Source of the DNA: an uncultured Nitrososphaerota archaeon
GTDB lineage: Archaea > Thermoproteota > Nitrososphaeria > Nitrososphaerales > Gagatemarchaeaceae
Length of the DNA: 64,000 nt
NCBI GenBank assembly: GCA_963703285.1
Contig: OY969807.1
Location: 1,568,001-1,632,000, forward strand
Direction of reading: 5' to 3'
The translations under genes were made by a program, and so were the position numbers. Below the pieces are notes generated by a model. That model made no database searches. It saw only the letters and a list, made by a program, of their open reading frames with translations, and was not told the DNA's origin. Position 1 is the first letter of the stretch. The number at the start of each line of letters is the position of its first letter. Positions 2,039 through 58,745 of this stretch are shown piece by piece.

Positions 2039-2224
2039 ATGAAGGCCGACAACGCCGAACTGAAACAAGAGATACACCAGATGAAGCGGAGGATATCTTC
2101 TCTGGAGAAGGCGTTTGATTCGATGCTGACCGCTGATGATTCCAGGGCGATTGAGGAGGCCCATCATGACCTCGCTCAGGGTCAGACTGTAGACCTCTCG
2201 CAAGTAAAGAAGAAGCATTCTTGA
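2039..2224 (+). CDS. Putative antitoxin of a RelE pair
   Basis: 61 aa coiled-coil-like with acidic tail; overlaps the relE start by 4 nt. Confidence 0.75.
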   Translation: MKADNAELKQEIHQMKRRISSLEKAFDSMLTADDSRAIEEAHHDLAQGQTVDLSQVKKKHS

Positions 2225-2481
2225 AATTCGACGTCAAGCTCTCCAAAAGGTCTCACAAAGAGCTGCTCTCGCTCGACCCCGCAACAAAAGCGAGGATAAT
2301 CCAGCGTCTTGAAGAGCTACAGGACGATCCCTTTCCCCACGGAGTGGTGAAACTCCAAGGAAGGGTCGATACCTACAGGATAAGAGTTGGTGACTACAGA
2401 GTCCTATACGAAGTCCTGAGGAAAGAAGCGCTGGTGCTCGTCGAGAAGATTGACCACCGCAGCGGTGTCTACGGTCCCTAA
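2221..2481 (+). CDS. relE: RelE/ParE-family toxin
   Basis: KLQG...YRIRVGDYRVLY...IDHRSGVY. Confidence 0.92.
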   Translation: MKFDVKLSKRSHKELLSLDPATKARIIQRLEELQDDPFPHGVVKLQGRVDTYRIRVGDYRVLYEVLRKEALVLVEKIDHRSGVYGP

Positions 2482-2529
2482 ACTCTCGAGCGCCTGGACC
2501 TTTCCTAACGGCCGTTGGTGAAACATCTT

Positions 2530-2589
2530 GCCGTGGATGGGGTTCATTGCGCCTCCGCCGGGGCATTTCATCCACACGTTGGGCTCTAG
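2530..2589 (-). repeat. Repeat R4
   Basis: gccgtggatggggttcattgcgcctccgccggggcatttcatccacacgttgggctctag. Confidence 0.95.
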
Positions 2590-2610
2590 GTGCTAATCGT
2601 CCAGTTCGCG

Positions 2611-3558
2611 CTAGGTGCTCTTTCTCATCCATGCCAGTGTTTCTCGAATTCCGTCCTCGTAGCTCCTCGTTGGATAGTTGGTGCCGAAAAAGCTGTTAAA
2701 CTTGCTCCCGTCTAGAATGAGAGGCTCCTCCGTCAGGTACTGCATCTCCGCGAATTCCCTGGCCAGGCCGTTGAACAAGCCCGCAAGCCGTACAAATGTT
2801 CGGCTCGTTCCGGTCATCTTCGGCTCGAATCCAGCTTGCTTGTATACCAAGTTAATCCAATCGCGAACCCGAATCGGCTCCGGTCCCGGGACGTTGAACT
2901 CTTGGCCGAAGGCATCCGGTCGTTCCGAGGCTGTTACCATAGCCTTCGCCGCGTCGGAGATGAAGATGAACTCGTGCATCGCGTCGAGTTTGCCGAACCA
3001 GCGGGCCGTCTTGTTCATGAGTGCCGACCGGAATATCCCGTCTGCAACGGAGGCTGAATTCGGACCGTAGTAATCCGGAAAACGCACGATCACGCATGGC
3101 ACCTCACCGTCTCGAGAACGCTGCATGAAGGTCTCTTCCAGCGCAAGGCGTATCCGTCCCTTCCTGGAGCATGGATTCCTCGAATGGTCCTCGCGTACCT
3201 TCCCTTCTGGAGCATGACCGAAGATGTACACGTTGCCTGGGAACACCATTCTTGTCTTCGCCTTGCGCGCGGCGTCGATTATCCTACCGTGAACCTGGGG
3301 CAGTCGGGACCACTGTTGATATGGCAGGTTGATGCAATTGTAGAATAGCTCGACGCCATCGAATGCCTTCTGAAGTGTTTGAGGGTCCTCGACAGAACCT
3401 TCGATTAACTCCACCTTGTCCGGACTGGCGAAGACCTTGCCTGACTTCGCACGATTTCGAACCAGCGCTCGAACCGGTTTTCCCGCCGAAGTCAGCTCGT
3501 TGACAATCGCGCTGCCGAGCGATCCAGTCGAGCCTAACACGAGGTACAATGCGGTCAC
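2611..3558 (-). CDS. NAD-dependent epimerase/dehydratase (SDR/NmrA-like)
   Basis: VLGSTGSLG Rossmann motif, RFPDYYGP. Confidence 0.88.
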   Translation of the reverse strand: MTALYLVLGSTGSLGSAIVNELTSAGKPVRALVRNRAKSGKVFASPDKVELIEGSVEDPQTLQKAFDGVELFYNCINLPYQQWSRLPQVHGRIIDAARKAKTRMVFPGNVYIFGHAPEGKVREDHSRNPCSRKGRIRLALEETFMQRSRDGEVPCVIVRFPDYYGPNSASVADGIFRSALMNKTARWFGKLDAMHEFIFISDAAKAMVTASERPDAFGQEFNVPGPEPIRVRDWINLVYKQAGFEPKMTGTSRTFVRLAGLFNGLAREFAEMQYLTEEPLILDGSKFNSFFGTNYPTRSYEDGIRETLAWMRKST

Positions 3559-23860: not shown

Positions 23861-24169
23861 GTAATTGGACGGGCTGAACACGTCGACCTTGCGGTCTTCG
23901 TGCGTACACCCCCAATACTTCAACGGAGTCTTCTACTCCCGCCCTTCTCAGCGTGCCCCTCTAGCCTTGCGGCCGGAAGGGTGTAGCTGATAGAACACTC
24001 TTCTTGGGAGTGGCTTCCTGCTTAGATGCTTTCAGCAGTTATCCACAACAGCTTAGCTGCCCGGCGGTGCCCTTTCGGACAACCGGTACGCCAGAGGCTG
24101 CGCGCCGCTGTTCCTCTCGTACTGAGCAGCGCTTCCCCGCAGTGTTCTTCCGCTTCCATCAGGTAGAGG

Positions 24170-24223
<54 letters not shown>

Positions 24224-24277
24224 GCAGCCCCACCCTTGGCCCCTGCTGCAGGACCAGGATGGGAAGAGCCGACATCG

Positions 24278-25154
24278 CAATCTTATCCGAAATTTCTTTC
24301 GGGATCAGACTATGTCTTCACCCTCCCGCACTTTCGAAGGAGGGGTTGGCGTATGATGGCTGACAGCGCACGTTGTCGCGGCGCGTCGGAACGCGCCTCG
24401 TGAACCTGCTTTGGGCCGGTTCTTGCGCTTAAATAACCAGTCTGCGCCCCTTCCCGGCATGTCAGACGGAAATCCGCCTTCATTCTTCCGGTCGTGGGAA
24501 CGCATGTGGGAGGTGCTGTCCTTCATCACCCTCCTGCTGGGAATCCTGGTCTTTCTGATAGCGCCCTTCGGGGGCGTTACCCAGACCGACGGCACGTATC
24601 TCCTGGCCATCAGCGTCGTCAGCGTCCTGCAGGCCATTTACTTTGACCGCAAGGCGCTCGAAACCGAGGCCAGGCAGGCCGAGGGACACCCAGCCAGCTA
24701 GTCATTTCGCCAAGCCATCTCATCACGCACATCTCTGCGCGCTCAGTCGTTACGGGGTCATATGGGAAGATCGATTCTACCCGTGACAGAAATACCGCAA
24801 CCAAAATCCACACCGGCCCGCCCTACGGCAGGACGGCATCTCGTCTGGTTGCGCCCGCTTGCATCCGCCGCCGGAACTTGCGCTCCGGAGCGTTTGCTGC
24901 CGGAGGATGTGTTCTCATTCGAACCCTTTCCTGTATTGTCCATCTTGGAAGAAGTGCCCTCAGTGGAGCGAACTCTTGGCTGTTTTGTTGCTTTAGCTAG
25001 AAGCAACCAATTGCTCGCTTACTTTTACCCATAGACTTCCCACGGCGTTGCCCTCTTCCGTTTCTTCAGTGTTCCCCGGAAGGAGGGGTTCGCCGTTATA
25101 AGCCAATGCTTCAAATCGCGTTACCGTGATTTTGCCCCGAGACCCGAAGGTCCA
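24278..25154 (-). ncRNA. Group I intron at L2500 (E. coli numbering)
   Basis: Interrupts TTTGGTACCT|CGATGTCGGC after U and ends in G; P/Q-like AACGGCGAACCC and AACGCCGTGGGAAG, R-like GTAACGACTG, S-like AAGACATAGTCT. Confidence 0.9.
24459..24701 (+). CDS. Small two-TM membrane protein antisense within the L2500 intron
   Basis: MSDGNPPSFFRSWERMWEVLSFITLLLGILVFLIAPF...YLLAISVVSVLQAIYF; TATA-like cttaaata ~25 nt upstream; GC3-rich codons. Confidence 0.65.
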   Translation: MSDGNPPSFFRSWERMWEVLSFITLLLGILVFLIAPFGGVTQTDGTYLLAISVVSVLQAIYFDRKALETEARQAEGHPAS

Positions 25155-25716
25155 AGGTACCAAACCGCGGGGTCGATTGGAGCTCTCGCCCGCGACGAGC
25201 CTGTTACCCCTGGGGTAACTTTTCTGTCACATCCAGCCCCCAACAGTGGGGACATGAATGATCGCTAGGCCACACTTTCGTGGCAGAGAACTCTGCGTTT
25301 AAGTTCCCTGTCAGGCCGGCTTTTCGCCTTGCCGTCAACGATGGAGTTCTGACCCATCTGAGCCGACCTTTGGGCCCCCTCGATATCTTTTCAAGGGGGT
25401 GCCGCCCCAGCCGAACTGCCCACCTGCCGGTGTCCTCCCGTAGGAGTTAGCGATACAGTCGCGAGGGACGGGTGTTACATTGTCGACTCCACCTGAGCCG
25501 GAGCCCAGGCTTCGAAGTCTGCCCGTTACACTCTGCAACCGCAACCGAATCGCAGCAACAAGCTGCAGTAAAGCTCCACAGGGACTTCTCTCCCCGATGG
25601 AAGTTGCTGGACTGTTCGTCCAGCTTACGTAGGTTCGCCGGGTCGTAGATAGGGACAGCGGGGCCCTCGTTGGTCCATTCATGCACGTCGGAACTCACCC
25701 GACAAGGCATTTGGCT

Positions 25717-26123
25717 CACTCTGTTACTTCCTCCGTAGACCTCGATCGCTCGAGGCGGGCTCCCCGTTAAGGAAGCCTCCTTGCATCGCTGCAAGGGTCG
25801 GACTATATCTTGATCGCTGCGAAGGCGATCTCTGGCGTATAGTCTCTGAGGATTCTAGATTCTTTTGTTTGGGATGTCCTTCGGAACTCAAGGAGTTACT
25901 TTGAGCTGAACAAGGCTGTTTGCTGTGTCGAGAAGGCAGTTCCGACTGACAACTGCCGTTCCCGTTGAAGGACGGTGTGTAGGCCGTCCGATTTGCTTGT
26001 CGAATCTAGGCTTTCCTGCTGATTGTCTGCGGCCATCGCATTTTCAGTCCCTTGCGGGACTAGCGTGGCATGCTCAGACTTTCCAGCATACAGCCAGATT
26101 TTGTTAAGGCAACGTTAGTGGTC
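25717..26123 (-). ncRNA. Group I intron at L1931, no intact ORF
   Basis: Interrupts CTTAAGGT|AGCCAAAT and ends in G; R TCAGAGACTA and S AAGATATAGTCC. Confidence 0.92.
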
Positions 26124-26255
26124 ACCTTAAGAGAGTCAGAGTTACTCCCGGCGTTTACAGGCCCTTAGCCCAGTTGAACCCAGGTTTTAGGTACCTGCAC
26201 TGGCCAGGATTCATAAACTGTACACACCCTTTCGGGCTTGCAGTTTACTGTGTTT

Positions 26256-26900
26256 TTTAACTCAGCCGGTGCCTCCTCTAGCCAGATTATCGGTTCCTCA
26301 CCTTCTTCCTCTTTAGCTTGACTGACGGAATTGCTTTGATGAATCTGCGGAGCGAATCGCGTCTGTATATCTGAAGACCATGGATCGTGCTGTACTTGTA
26401 GATGTGCGAGTATGTTACTCCTAGGAATTCCAGCCTTTGCTGGATCGCTTCCAGGAGAGCTTTGTTTCCGTTGTAGATTACGACTCGGTCGGTCACCGTC
26501 CCTTCGGCGTCCATGACGCCTGCGATGAAGCTTCGGGCCTCATCGTCTGACAGTTCCCCGACGTACGTCGTGATGTGTTCGAACTTTGTCCGAAGGTCTA
26601 GGTACAGTTCCTTGGAGTAAACCAGGGCTCTGTACTTCCAGACCTTGTCGGATTTTGCGTAGTATCGATACGAGTACACCTTGTACCCGAGTTGCTGGAG
26701 TCTTGGAATGGTGTGTTCGATGATTTCCTTGTTGCGCTCTGTCTGGTCTACCCAGACGGCGTACGCTCCGTCTTTGCGCTTCGACGTCGAACCATCCCCG
26801 AATAGTATTCCTACCAGGTATGGGTCGACGCGCATCTTGTCTGACTAGTTGTGGTCTGTATTTCAGGACCGCTATCTCTTGGCCGGAGGCCCGTGCTGAT
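26256..26900 (-). mobile_element. Archaeal BHB-type rRNA intron near L1784
   Basis: Canonical BHB: UGUU-UAAU-AAA-UCAGC / GCUGA-GUUA-AAA-AACA; excision restores TGTTTAATAAAAACACAG. Confidence 0.92.
26287..26835 (-). CDS. LAGLIDADG homing endonuclease (two motifs)
   Basis: YLVGILFGDGS and FIAGVMDAEGT. Confidence 0.92.
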   Translation of the reverse strand: MRVDPYLVGILFGDGSTSKRKDGAYAVWVDQTERNKEIIEHTIPRLQQLGYKVYSYRYYAKSDKVWKYRALVYSKELYLDLRTKFEHITTYVGELSDDEARSFIAGVMDAEGTVTDRVVIYNGNKALLEAIQQRLEFLGVTYSHIYKYSTIHGLQIYRRDSLRRFIKAIPSVKLKRKKVRNR

Positions 26901-28879
26901 TTATTAAACAGTCGGGACCCCCTCGTTATTGCAACCTGCGATCCCAGTTCAACACTAAGAACGCAGGCACCACTTTTCGCTAACTTACGTGGCTAATTTG
27001 CCGAGTTCCCTTACCTACAGTTCCCCGACACGCCTTAGGCTTCTCACCTAGGATCACTGGTGTCGGATCTAGGTACGAGCTTCAGTATCCCTATCCTCCT
27101 ATGTTTTCACTGTCTCCGGGAATGGGCCTAACGATCCCAACGGACCGCTATTCTCCCCTCGGAGGAGTTCTCGTCATTACGACACTCCCTCCCCCTTGGA
27201 TGATTAAACAGAGCGAATAACTCTGTAAGGCTCGTCTCGAAGCATCATAGGTGATGTTTTCTTGCGAATTTTCGGAATACCGAAGGCTGCGGAATATTAA
27301 CCGCATTCCCTCATTCGACCAATACTGTTGAGTTTGGTCTTAGGATCGGCTAACTCCTGGCTGATGACGCATTGCCAGGAAAACCGTGTCCTTTCGGCGG
27401 TCAGGATTCTCACCCGACTACGCTGCTACTACTACCGGGATCTGCACTGGAGGTCGGTCCACTGGATCTCACGACCCAGCTTCTACCCAACCACCACGCC
27501 CATCTACCACATACCACCCACAAGGTGGCAGTCCAGAGTATCGGTACTTGGCTTTAGCCCCGTCCATTTTCGGGGCCCTCAACCTCGGCAGGTGAGCTGT
27601 TACGCTTTCTTTGAAGGGTAGCTGCTTCTAAGCTTACCTCCCTGCTGTTTTAGGTCAAAGACTCCCTTTTGCTTGACACTTAGCCAAAATTTGGGGACCT
27701 TAACTCTAGTCTGGGTTAACCCCCTCTCGGTTATGAGGCTTACCCCACATAAACCCGCCTCCCCGCGTCTACTGCGTTGACACATTCGGAGTTCAAGAAG
27801 AAAGTGGACCCTTTCGGATCCTTGTTTTCTCGTTGGTGCTCTACAGCGTCAACTACATCGGCGGAGACAGGACTGGGATCCGCTTCGATGGGAACTAGCA
27901 ATCACCGAACTAGATAGGCTTTTGGCCCCTTGGCCAGAATCAGGGGACTAAATTGCACGTTAAGACCCTTGCAGTCCTCGACCAGGCTTTCGCCCGGCTT
28001 CAACTTGTTCTGGCCACGATCGATCGGTTTCTAGTCTAATCCGCCATGACTTAAAGGCCCTTTCAGACCTCCTGCCAGGCCCCTTGCGGGGTTACGCAGA
28101 ATCGCTTTCGCTTCGCCTCCGGGCTTTGAACCCTTAGGCTCGCCATGACAAATAACTCCCCGGCCCGTGTTTCTAGACGGAACTCAGGACACTGAGGCAC
28201 TTAACCCACGTTGAGGACCCTTGCAGGTTATCTCGGCGGGCCGAAGCCCACGTTGAACCCCTGTTCGGGTGGTCTCGCTGCGGAATCATACCTCTTTCAT
28301 GCCCTGAACGTCTGTAGCTGGATGGTTTCAGGCTCTTTGCACACCCCTTTCGGGGTACTTTTCAGCTTTCCCTCGCGGTACTAGTGCTCTATCGGTCTTG
28401 GTTTGTGTTTAGTCTTGGGGGCTGCTTTCCCCCGTCTTCCCTAGCCACTGCCAAAGCCCGTTACTCTGCCTTTCGCACGACCTCGTCGTCGAACAGCCTA
28501 CAGGACTATCACCTGATATTGTCTGCCTTTCCAGGCAAGTTCGGCCGCACGACTTCAGGGTCGCATATGCTAAGGCGAACCCCACATCTCCCGGCCCTTT
28601 CGGGCAAGGATTCGGTTTGGACTCTCCCGCGTTGGGTCGCCCCTACTGACGGGATCTCAGTTGATTTCTCTTCCTCCTGGTACTCAGATGTTTCCTTCCC
28701 CAGGGTTTGCGTTCCTTGCGGAACGGAAGGATGCCTTGCGGCAGTCCTCCCAGATTGGAATCCATTCGGGAATCTCCGGATCGAAGGATGCTTGCGCCTC
28801 CCCGGAGCTTATCGCAGCTTACCGCGCCCTTCTTCGCCATACCAAGCCAAGCCATTCACCATACAGCGTCGTTGTGTCG

Positions 28880-28926
28880 GATGATTAACATCCCCGGCGG
28901 ATGCTTGCGCGAACCCTATGCATGGC
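28880..28926 (-). other. 5' strand of the pre-23S processing stem (BHB)
   Basis: RNA GCCAUGCAUAGGGUUC-GCGC-AAG-CAUCCGCCGGGG, complementary to 23802-23835. Confidence 0.9.
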
Positions 28927-29075: not shown

Positions 29076-30574
<1,499 letters not shown>

Positions 30575-58658: not shown

Positions 58659-58745
58659 GCCTCGGTAGCTCAGCCTGGTAGAGCACTGCCTTGGTAAGGA
58701 AATCCAGAGAGGCAGGGGTCCCGGGATCAAATCCCGGCCGAGGCT
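58659..58745 (+). tRNA. tRNA-Thr(GGT) with a canonical 37/38 intron
   Basis: GCCTCGG acceptor stem, CTTGGTA[13 nt]A. Confidence 0.9.

What the first reader, a model, noticed from the sequence alone, without database searches (positions are those of the whole stretch)
24420..24701. Group I intron in 23S carries an antisense membrane-protein gene instead of a homing endonuclease
Seen: between the R and S (P7) elements of the L2500 intron lies an 80-codon ORF on the strand opposite the rRNA. It has two clear hydrophobic helices, GC3-rich codons and a TATA-like box ~25 nt upstream. Established: group I intron ORFs are nearly always homing endonucleases or maturases. Inference: a passenger gene transcribed against the rRNA operon.
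Basis: partly seen in the sequence, partly recalled or inferred. Interest (0 to 1): 0.7.

Follow-up and report, generated by a model that had tools for sequence, protein, structure and literature searches.

The report
Antisense membrane-protein gene inside rRNA intron
A self-splicing-type intron in an archaeon's 23S rRNA gene carries, on the opposite strand, a small conserved membrane-protein gene with its own promoter where such introns normally carry a DNA-cutting enzyme gene; what the protein does is not known.

Summary
An 877-nt group I intron (window 24278-25154, minus strand) interrupts the single 23S rRNA gene at the site called L2500. On the plus strand it holds an 80-codon ORF (24459-24701).

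The ORF is a real gene:
- Relatives occur in the same intron arm in two other genomes and eight metagenome contigs. A close copy (one metagenome locus, seen on two contigs) and a distant one (G060) stand free among ordinary genes.
- Tree-based omega is 0.155, and the LRT against omega=1 gives p about 4e-43.
- Codon-position differences are 0.26/0.17/0.41.
- GC1/2/3 matches the host's long ORFs.
- A GCGCTTAAATAA box sits 30 nt before the ATG in 12 of 12 loci. That is the host's usual TATA position and implies a leaderless mRNA.

The protein is a predicted two-helix membrane hairpin with both ends inside. It matches no Pfam, PHROG, NCBIfam or PADLOC family. It is not a homing endonuclease.

The gene lies in the P7.2 peripheral arm and is optional. 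All 12 assessable genomes of the genus have the intron, but only 2 have the gene.

Transcription, splicing and function were not shown. My best mechanistic guess, at low confidence, is expression inversely gated by rRNA and intron antisense RNA.

The parts
24278..25154 (-). Group I intron (IA-like, with P7.1/P7.2) in the 23S rRNA gene at the site called L2500; 877 nt
   Evidence: Exon anchors and terminal G. Alignment with 7 relatives. Consensus fold of 10 ORF-less relatives with 45 compensatory pairs. Partial RF00028 hit.
24459..24701 (+). CDS of the 80-aa two-TM protein (P0002), antisense to the rRNA
   Evidence: Homologs. Selection. Topology.
24423..24435 (+). BRE/TATA-like promoter element TTGCGC-TTAAATA; TATA at -30..-24 from the ATG, implying a leaderless mRNA
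   Evidence: Conserved at the same distance in 12 of 12 loci, including the free-standing copy. Matches the genome-wide CGCTTAAATA boxes that peak 30-35 nt before long-ORF ATGs.
24402..24422 (.). Hairpin C (GAACCTGC...GCCGGTTC) just upstream of the promoter; present in most ORF-bearing introns
   Evidence: Stem sequences differ between loci but stay complementary, by eye in the upstream sequences and the tails. Folded.
24378..24399 (-). Hairpin B of the P7.2 arm, shared by ORF-bearing and ORF-less introns
   Evidence: columns 575-583/590-598, with compensatory changes. Also.
24713..24719 (-). 5' strand of the basal P7.2 helix (RNA GAUGGCU); closes the arm that holds the gene
   Evidence: columns 552-558/645-651 (compensatory at 555/648 and 558/645). 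fold.
24355..24361 (-). 3' strand of the basal P7.2 helix (RNA AGCCAUC)
   Evidence: Same evidence as the 5' strand.
24743..24753 (-). R-like element / P7 5' strand (RNA GUAACGACUGA)
   Evidence: Found by regex in all 19 complete introns examined. Resembles the RF00028 consensus around P7 (alignment of the other intron); that comparison is by eye.
24288..24344 (-). P8, J8/7, P7 3' strand (S) and P9
   Evidence: RF00028 partial hit, model positions 160-251.
24346..24350 (-). P3 3' strand (RNA GCCAA)
   Evidence: columns 656-660 pair with 60-64. The U-A to C-G double change is seen in 4 versus 6 of 10 sequences.
25102..25106 (-). P3 5' strand (RNA UUGGC)
   Evidence: columns 60-64.

Best explanation
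The stretch is a genuine, independently transcribed protein-coding gene of a previously undescribed small family. It is nested on the antisense strand in the P7.2 peripheral arm of an L2500 group I intron of the archaeon's only 23S rRNA gene.

Shown here:
- The frame, the start codon and an archaeal BRE/TATA box 30 nt upstream are conserved.
- The gene evolves under purifying selection.
- It has host-like codon composition.
- It is optional cargo: the intron is present in every assessable genome of the genus, the gene in only some.
- The same promoter+CDS cassette also occurs outside rRNA.

Inferred:
- The mRNA is leaderless.
- The product is an N-in/C-in two-helix membrane hairpin, and it is not an endonuclease or maturase.
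- The gene faces the cell's busiest transcription unit, and its whole mRNA, including the 5' AUG, is complementary to the pre-rRNA and excised intron. Its expression should therefore be inversely coupled to rRNA synthesis, through transcriptional interference plus antisense masking.

The 0.75 confidence applies to the first three claims: real gene, own promoter, membrane hairpin cargo. For the antisense-gating step I give about 0.4. For a membrane-perturbing (toxin- or holin-like) activity I give about 0.25.
For: Homologs:
- G009 carries one in the same intron arm (33% identity, E 2e-8).
- G241, of a sister genus, carries one inside its 23S intron.
- 11 metagenome proteins are 57-71% identical.
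- 8 of 10 metagenome loci are colinear with this intron.
- The whole-library profile search found only 8 representative clusters.

Free-standing copies:
- L020/L021 sit between GNAT, DUF3052 and SDR genes, with no Rfam hit. Their flanks are unrelated to the intron (231 of 1000 shuffles score as high).
- L036 in G060 is a distant copy (hhalign probability 96%, E 3.4e-9; no rRNA in the locus).

Selection:
- NG86 omega is below 1 in 66 of 66 pairs (0.09-0.79).
- ML omega is 0.155, with 2dlnL = 189.6 against omega=1 (10 sequences, 71 codons).
- Differences by codon position are 0.26/0.17/0.41.
- Only the +1 frame is open in 12 of 12 loci.

Composition: GC1/2/3 is 0.60/0.44/0.80 against a host mean of 0.61/0.46/0.79.

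Promoter:
- GCGCTTAAATAA lies at -30 in 12 of 12 loci.
- Host TTWAWA boxes peak at -35..-26 before long-ORF ATGs (28 and 15 per 5-nt bin, against 0-12 elsewhere). Many of them read CGCTTAAATA.

Topology: two hydrophobic segments, with K/R only in the tails. AF2 gives a helical hairpin.

Placement: the P7.2 arm is supported by covariation, and the arm folds closed around the insert.
Against: - There is no direct evidence of the antisense transcript, the protein or splicing. The only read-laying run returned nothing.
- The gene is missing from 10 of the 12 introns of the genus, so neither the intron nor the host needs it.
- The loci were found by protein similarity, so an open frame is partly by construction. 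Decayed copies could have been missed, although no match contained stops.
- Many NG86 pairs have saturated dS.
- The AF2 model has only moderate confidence (pLDDT 68.7).
- No family or fold match gives a function.
- No clear oligo-T terminator follows the stop codon (only TTT).
Confidence: 0.75

Rival explanations
1. Type-I-toxin-antitoxin-like or addiction module. The small membrane protein is toxic, and the abundant pre-rRNA or excised intron RNA is its cis-antisense antitoxin. The protein is made only when rRNA synthesis collapses or the intron RNA disappears, which enforces dormancy or penalises loss of the element.
For: - The geometry is fixed by the sequence: the mRNA is fully complementary to the intron RNA, including the leaderless 5' AUG.
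- The product is a small hydrophobic protein with charged tails.
- The gene is optional, is interspersed on the intron tree and occurs both in introns and free-standing, as selfish cargo would.
Against: - Toxicity was not tested.
- At 80 aa with two TM helices, the protein is larger than most type I toxins (recalled).
- Free-standing copies (L021, L036) have no known antisense partner.
- The intron is fixed in 12 of 12 genomes although 10 lack the gene, so it is not needed for intron retention.
- There are no PADLOC, Pfam or PHROG toxin hits.
Confidence: 0.22
2. Ordinary host accessory gene that happens to reside in the intron, a captured host gene comparable to rps3 in fungal mitochondrial LSU introns. 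It would be a small membrane protein with a cellular role unrelated to the intron, and the intron arm would simply be a tolerated landing place.
For: - Host-like codon composition and a host-consensus promoter.
- Free-standing relatives in the same archaeal family.
- Purifying selection.
Against: - It is odd for a useful gene to sit head-on inside the rRNA operon.
- It is present in only 3 of the 97 searched genomes of the family as an intron copy, plus 1 free-standing copy. The gene is therefore far from housekeeping.
- Nearly all known copies are intron-borne.
Confidence: 0.3
3. Not a gene. The ORF is an accidental open frame opposite a structured peripheral RNA domain, or a decayed endonuclease gene, and is conserved only at the RNA level.
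For: - The RNA-sense insert folds well (z = -4.2).
- The ORF is short, has no family hit, and is absent from most related introns.
Against: - Third-position-biased divergence and omega 0.155.
- Conserved ATG and TATA spacing.
- Homologs outside any rRNA or intron.
- No endonuclease similarity in any frame.
- The five other frames carry stops in most loci.
Confidence: 0.04

Closest known systems
Archaeal IA3 group I introns at LSU/2500 (IA3.2, IA3.3 of Nawrocki, Jones & Eddy 2018, PMC6125680; main text and Table 1 read)
   Same: Same domain of life, same host gene and same insertion site as named in that table, and similar length (799 and 819 nt against 877 nt). An IA architecture with helices between P7 and P3' fits.
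   Different: That paper reports only LAGLIDADG hits, in 21 of 39 introns, and mentions no antisense or non-endonuclease ORF. Subtype membership was not tested with the GISSD models.
Didymium iridis S956-2 nuclear rDNA group I intron with antisense I-DirII gene (PMC3679873 and PMC3073962, passages read)
   Same: A protein gene lies on the strand opposite the rRNA and ribozyme, inside a peripheral part of a group I intron, and is expressed from its own promoter.
   Different: That gene is a homing endonuclease in a eukaryote, with a Pol II promoter, a spliceosomal intron and a poly(A) tail. Here the gene encodes a two-TM membrane protein in an archaeon, with a BRE/TATA box and an inferred leaderless mRNA.
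Non-endonuclease cargo in organellar group I introns: rps3 in the fungal mitochondrial LSU intron, and host genes inside the cnidarian nad5 intron (recalled; only the reference list of PMC3073962 was seen)
   Same: Group I introns can house genes that have nothing to do with mobility or splicing.
   Different: As I recall them, those are sense-strand organellar housekeeping genes. This one is antisense, optional, of unknown function and carries its own promoter.
[quoted passage not shown]
   Same: A small hydrophobic membrane protein whose mRNA is overlapped by a cis-encoded antisense RNA.
   Different: Here the antisense RNA would be an rRNA-intron transcript, not a dedicated sRNA. The protein is longer, with two TM helices. 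Toxicity and RNA-RNA control are untested.
Class II phage holins
   Same: About 70-95 aa, two TM helices, predicted N-in/C-in, charged C-terminal tail (the definition is recalled).
   Different: HMM hits to holin families are all below significance: Pfam Phage_holin_2_3 at E 0.0034 for the G009 protein only, and PHROG holins at E >= 0.1. There are no viral relatives and no lysis-gene neighbours.

Membership tests
Group I intron | Insertion at a conserved rRNA site, with a U at the end of the 5' exon paired to G in P1 | tested here: met
   The 5' exon ends GGTACCU. The U.G pair at columns 8/27 occurs in 10 of 10 ORF-less relatives, and the window has the same sequence. The E. coli number 2500 is recalled, not computed. 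LSU/2500 is a listed group I site in PMC6125680, Table 1.
Group I intron | Terminal guanosine (omega-G) at the 3' end | tested here: met
   All 19 distinct complete introns extracted end in ...GATTG or ...GGTTG before CGATGTCGG.
Group I intron | Conserved core: P3/P7 pseudoknot, P4-P6 domain, P8, J8/7 | tested here: met
   P3 is supported by compensatory changes (columns 61/659: 6 C-G, 4 U-A). Long-range helix 131-144/500-512, P8 and P9 are also found. J8/7-P7'-P9 is matched by RF00028. P7 itself is invariant, so it is only consistent, not proven by covariation.
Group I intron | Reaches the Rfam RF00028 gathering score (50 bits) | tested here: not met
   26.8 bits in the window and 24-31 bits in six relatives. 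PMC6125680 states that RF00028 gave no significant archaeal hits after overlapping hits were resolved (lowest E-value kept), and that subtype models were needed. The other intron in this gene does reach 54.6 bits.
Group I intron | Self-splicing with exogenous G; the spliced junction present in RNA | not testable with these tools
   Read-laying returned nothing. Indirect evidence only: this part of the 23S gene is single-copy, and no uninterrupted junction exists in 23 genomes of the genus, so the intron must be removed.
Subgroup IA / IA3 | Extra helices P7.1 and P7.2 between P7 and P3' | tested here: met
   Two helical elements lie between R and the P3 3' strand: a P7.1 hairpin read by eye and a P7.2 arm supported by covariation. 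The definition is recalled. The GISSD IA3 covariance model was not available, so subtype assignment is not tested.
Homing endonuclease / maturase (LAGLIDADG, GIY-YIG, HNH, His-Cys) | Sequence match to an endonuclease family | tested here: not met
   There is no Pfam hit at E <= 0.01 for the ORF or for 11 other intron ORFs. As a positive control, the 182-aa ORF at 26287-26835 elsewhere in the same gene hits LAGLIDADG_3 at E 6.9e-12.
Type I toxin-antitoxin | Small hydrophobic membrane protein overlapped by a cis-antisense RNA | tested here: inconclusive
   Hydrophobic two-TM protein. Complementarity to the intron RNA follows from the gene's position. Existence and interaction of the two RNAs is not shown.
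Type I toxin-antitoxin | Toxicity on overexpression, neutralised by the RNA | not testable with these tools
   Needs expression experiments.
Holin (class II) | Match to a holin family and linkage to lysis genes or viruses | tested here: not met
   Only sub-threshold hits. No relative in viral contigs. The neighbours are rRNA or intron, or GNAT/SDR genes.

The most novel reading that the evidence does not exclude
The rRNA intron is the antitoxin. This would be a type-I-like toxin-antitoxin arrangement in Archaea, in which the cell's own pre-rRNA or excised group I intron RNA silences a leaderless mRNA for a membrane-active two-TM protein. The rate of rRNA synthesis then becomes the switch for its production, and the promoter+CDS cassette moves between introns and chromosomal sites as selfish cargo.
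Probability: 0.2. Interest if true: 0.85.

Novelty: new variant of a known kind. Interest (0 to 1): 0.65.

Why it matters
Group I intron cargo is almost always a homing endonuclease or maturase. In archaea the only cargo reported in the paper I read (PMC6125680) is LAGLIDADG.

This case shows a different cargo class. It is a promoter-bearing, antisense gene for a small membrane protein, under purifying selection, that is gained, lost or exchanged independently of the intron core.

It adds a new small-protein family. It also offers a natural system for asking how a gene is expressed head-on inside the most heavily transcribed operon of a cell. And it raises a testable idea: an rRNA-linked RNA could gate a membrane protein in the manner of type I toxin-antitoxin pairs.

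My five literature searches found no description of such a gene. The held library is incomplete, and paper supplements were closed.

Tried and rejected
- Read-laying on the window was attempted three times. There is therefore no evidence on splicing or antisense RNA.
They are not used as evidence.
- The dimer prediction gave no verdict.
- The PDB fold search gave 0 matches at E <= 0.001. A two-helix hairpin is uninformative for this kind of search.
- The ESM Atlas best score was 0.88, below the useful level.
- Pfam, PHROGs, NCBIfam and PADLOC gave only sub-threshold hits typical of hydrophobic helices: holin families, SLATT at E 0.08-0.09, SecE and ArnE. I rejected these as family assignments.
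- The genome contigs pattern scan found no relative, and neither did the viral-contig scan.
- A DNA search with the 351-nt ORF stretch in the genus found only chance-level hits (best E 0.006).
- No terminal inverted or flanking direct repeats bound the cassette, so a transposon-like insertion is not supported.
- Similarity between the flanks of the free-standing copy and the intron is not significant, so an intron remnant there is rejected.
- Two weak family-search hits are treated as chance: G214 at E 0.0065, and G011 at E 0.0085 inside a 502-aa frame.
- One Rfam call on ten loci failed internally. It was replaced by blastn and smaller Rfam calls.
- No AMO or MCR-alpha gene was found in the genome. 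The AMO control rang nowhere, so that result is uninformative. The host's taxon was left unnamed.

Full report
**What is at the coordinates**

The window carries an archaeal rRNA operon on the minus strand. Rfam places SSU at 29077-30574 and LSU starting at 28884. Rfam's LSU alignment stops at 24999, but the 23S gene continues beyond that. The stretch 23990-24277 is 94-98% identical to the 23S 3' part in relatives with a near-full-length match, and it occurs once in this genome.

Between ...GGTTTGGTACCT and CGATGTCGGCTC... lies an 877-nt intervening sequence, window 24278-25154 on the minus strand. By my recollection of E. coli numbering, the 5' exon ends at U2500. LSU/2500 is a listed group I site, and two archaeal IA3 introns are reported there (PMC6125680, Table 1, read).

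On the plus strand an ORF runs from ATG 24459 to the stop at 24701 (80 aa). TTAAATA lies at 24429-24435.

**Is it a group I intron?**

RF00028 matches only the 3' part, 24288-24344 (P8, J8/7, P7', P9). The score is 26.8 bits, E 7e-4, below the gathering score of 50. Six related introns score 24-31 bits. PMC6125680 states that RF00028 gave no significant archaeal hits after overlapping hits were resolved (lowest E-value kept), and that subtype models were needed.

The structural evidence is better. I folded 10 ORF-less relatives of this intron together, which gave 151 pairs, 45 of them with compensatory changes. The fold shows:
- P1 with the U.G pair at the splice site (10 of 10 sequences);
- a GNRA-capped P2;
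- P3 (columns 60-68/652-660, with U-A in 4 and C-G in 6 at 61/659);
- a long helix, 131-144/500-512, closing the P4-P6 region;
- P8 and P9.

All 19 complete introns end in G. Between the R-like element and the P3 3' strand lie two extra elements. One is a P7.1 hairpin. The other is a long P7.2 arm made of a basal helix (552-558/645-651), helix A (566-574/609-617) and hairpin B (575-583/590-598). That is the IA architecture as I recall it. Subtype models were not available, so IA3 membership is not tested.

**Distribution of the intron**

In the genus, 12 of 23 genomes (G000 included) have this part of the 23S gene assembled. All 12 carry the intron. None of the 23 has an uninterrupted junction. 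With a single 23S gene, the intron must be removed from the rRNA. That is an inference; splicing was not observed.

**The ORF arm**

In 10 of the 12 genus introns, the region corresponding to window ~24362-24710 is only about 70-125 nt long and forms helix A plus flanking pieces. The 351-nt stretch of the window has no DNA-level relative in the other 22 genomes (best E 0.006).

G009 has an insert at the same place. On the antisense strand it encodes a 74-aa protein that is 33% identical to the window's (E 2e-8).

In ORF-bearing introns the cassette sits between the basal P7.2 helix (RNA GAUGGCU/AGCCAUC, window 24713-24719 and 24355-24361) and hairpin B. Helix A is missing. Most have an extra hairpin C just upstream of the promoter. 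The whole arm still folds closed in a single-sequence fold.

**Is it a gene?**

- The 5.8-billion-protein search found 11 relatives, 57-71% identical, on contigs of 515-1793 nt.
- A profile search of 1.84 billion representatives found only 8 clusters, so the family is small.
- Genome searches found it in 3 of 401 genomes of the order: G000, G009 and G241. G241's copy is also antisense inside its 23S gene, with a group I hit.
- Of 10 metagenome loci, 8 (L022-L029) are colinear with this intron and its exons at 75-84% identity.
- The alignment shows a conserved N-terminal NPPSFYWSFERFWE motif and an invariant LQAIY..RK at the end of helix 2.

Selection analysis used 12 sequences. L020 was dropped because it is identical to L021 over the ORF.
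- NG86 omega is below 1 in 66 of 66 pairs, ranging 0.09-0.79. Many pairs have saturated dS.
- Mean pairwise differences by codon position are 0.26/0.17/0.41.
- A codon-model fit on the 10 closer sequences (L018 and L019 left out, 71 gap-free codons) gives omega 0.155. lnL is -1486.4 against -1581.2 with omega fixed at 1, so 2dlnL = 189.6 and p is about 4e-43.
- Only the +1 frame is open in all 12 loci. The others are open in 0-5. Because the loci were found by protein similarity, this is partly by construction, but no match contained stops.
- GC1/2/3 of the ORF is 0.60/0.44/0.80. The mean of the host's 844 long ORFs is 0.61/0.46/0.79.

**Promoter**

All 12 loci have (G)CGCTTAAATA(A) or a close variant, with the TATA starting 30-33 nt before the ATG. 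This includes the divergent G009 and G241 copies and the free-standing copy.

In this 60.6% GC genome TTAAATA occurs only 97 times on both strands. Upstream of 2314 long ORFs, TTWAWA peaks in the bins -35..-31 (28) and -30..-26 (15), against 0-12 elsewhere. TTAAAT peaks at exactly -30. Many of these host promoters read CGCTTAAATA.

The ORF therefore carries the host's consensus BRE/TATA at the distance typical of leaderless mRNAs. A TATA box about 26 nt from the start site is recalled general archaeal knowledge. Transcription itself is not shown.

**Copies outside introns**

L020 and L021 are overlapping contigs of one locus. They hold a 60%-identical copy with the same promoter. It lies between a GNAT acetyltransferase, a DUF3052 protein, an unknown 186-aa ORF and an SDR gene. 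Neither locus has an Rfam hit. The flanks beyond the promoter and stop are not similar to the intron (231 and 724 of 1000 shuffles score as high).

G060, of a sister genus, has a distant 75-aa relative (hhalign probability 96%, E 3.4e-9). It has a CGCTTAATAA box at -33 and no rRNA nearby.

On the ORF tree the window's copy is sister to the free-standing L021 copy (97/96). On the intron-core tree the window's intron is sister to L024 (100/99).

On the core tree, 19 introns were used. L023 and L025 were dropped because the contig ends cut them, and L020/L021 have no intron. ORF-bearing (9) and ORF-less (10) introns are interspersed. The tree needs 5 changes, at least 3 of them forced by well-supported branches, and the label is not more clustered than shuffles (69-94 of 500 shuffles are as low). 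The cassette is thus gained, lost or exchanged independently of the intron core.

**The protein**

It has two hydrophobic segments, roughly residues 16-43 and 45-63. All K/R residues are in the N- and C-terminal tails and none is in the short acidic loop. By the positive-inside rule this predicts N-in/C-in.

AF2 with a 24-sequence alignment gives a helical hairpin, H8-38 and H42-75, at mean pLDDT 68.7.

No family matches. The best Pfam hit is E 0.11 for the window protein and E 0.0034, below cutoff, to a holin family for the G009 protein. PHROGs, NCBIfam, PADLOC, the Atlas and the PDB fold search gave nothing usable. There are no viral relatives. Eleven other ORFs in the intron have no Pfam hit either, so the intron has no recognisable endonuclease.

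**How it most likely works**

Shown: this is a conserved coding cassette (promoter plus CDS) lodged antisense in a peripheral, structurally tolerant arm of the ribozyme.

Inferred:
- Transcription starts at or next to the ATG, giving a leaderless mRNA.
- The product inserts into the membrane.
- Transcription runs head-on into the single rRNA operon, and the entire mRNA is complementary to the pre-rRNA and excised intron. Expression should therefore be low while rRNA synthesis is high and rise when it stops.

Whether the protein perturbs membranes (type-I-toxin-like or holin-like) or has an ordinary accessory role cannot be decided here. I give about 0.22 to the toxin/antitoxin reading and 0.3 to plain captured cargo. 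Because 10 of the 12 genus introns persist without it, it is not needed to keep the intron.

**Comparison with what is known**

Antisense genes with their own promoter in rDNA group I introns are known from Didymium (I-DirII), but that gene is a homing endonuclease in a eukaryote (PMC3679873 and PMC3073962, passages read). Non-endonuclease cargo is known from organelles, for example rps3 and the cnidarian nad5 intron (recalled).

Archaeal group I introns, including IA3 at LSU/2500, were described in 2018 with only LAGLIDADG cargo (PMC6125680, main text read; supplements closed). My five searches found no report of an antisense membrane-protein gene in a group I intron. I rate this a new variant of a known kind.

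Noticed in passing
window 25779-26154 (-): A second group I intron lies in the same 23S gene, with a full-length RF00028 hit (54.6 bits). Relatives carry it too, at 82-88% identity over window 26257-25995.
   Followed up: partly
window 26258-26899 (-), ORF 26287-26835: A 642-nt insertion in the 23S gene carries a sense-strand 182-aa LAGLIDADG_3 ORF (E 6.9e-12). It directly abuts the intron above and is absent at that place from 5 relatives (L002, L005-L008). So the same rRNA gene holds a classical endonuclease-bearing element alongside the antisense-gene intron.
   Followed up: partly
window 24999-28884: Rfam's LSU alignment forces model positions up to 2987 to end at 24999, inside the L2500 intron. 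The true 3' exon is 24277 down to about 23990 or beyond. Automatic annotation of this gene would be wrong at the 3' end.
   Followed up: partly
L008 (G011), 3' exon, between ...GGGTTTAG and ACCGTCGTGAG...: This relative alone has an extra insert of about 100 nt in the 23S 3' exon. It may be a small bulge-helix-bulge-type intron. I did not analyse it.
   Followed up: no
L003 (G004) 2162-3073 and L004 (G009), equivalent to window ~25347: Two relatives carry a further insertion of about 900 nt in the 23S gene, upstream of the L2500 intron, which the window lacks.
   Followed up: no
L019 (G241) 1379-2620: The sister-genus version of the L2500 intron is 1242 nt long. Its R element lies at position 743 instead of about 400, so it has additional insertions in the 5' half.
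   Followed up: no
window 58659-58745 (+): A tRNA hit spans 87 nt for a 71-position model (55 bits). It may contain an intron or a long variable arm.
   Followed up: no
G000 whole genome: Many long ORFs have a CGCTTAAATA box 30-35 nt before the first ATG. This suggests widespread leaderless transcripts and a strong BRE-TATA consensus in this 60.6% GC archaeon.
   Followed up: partly
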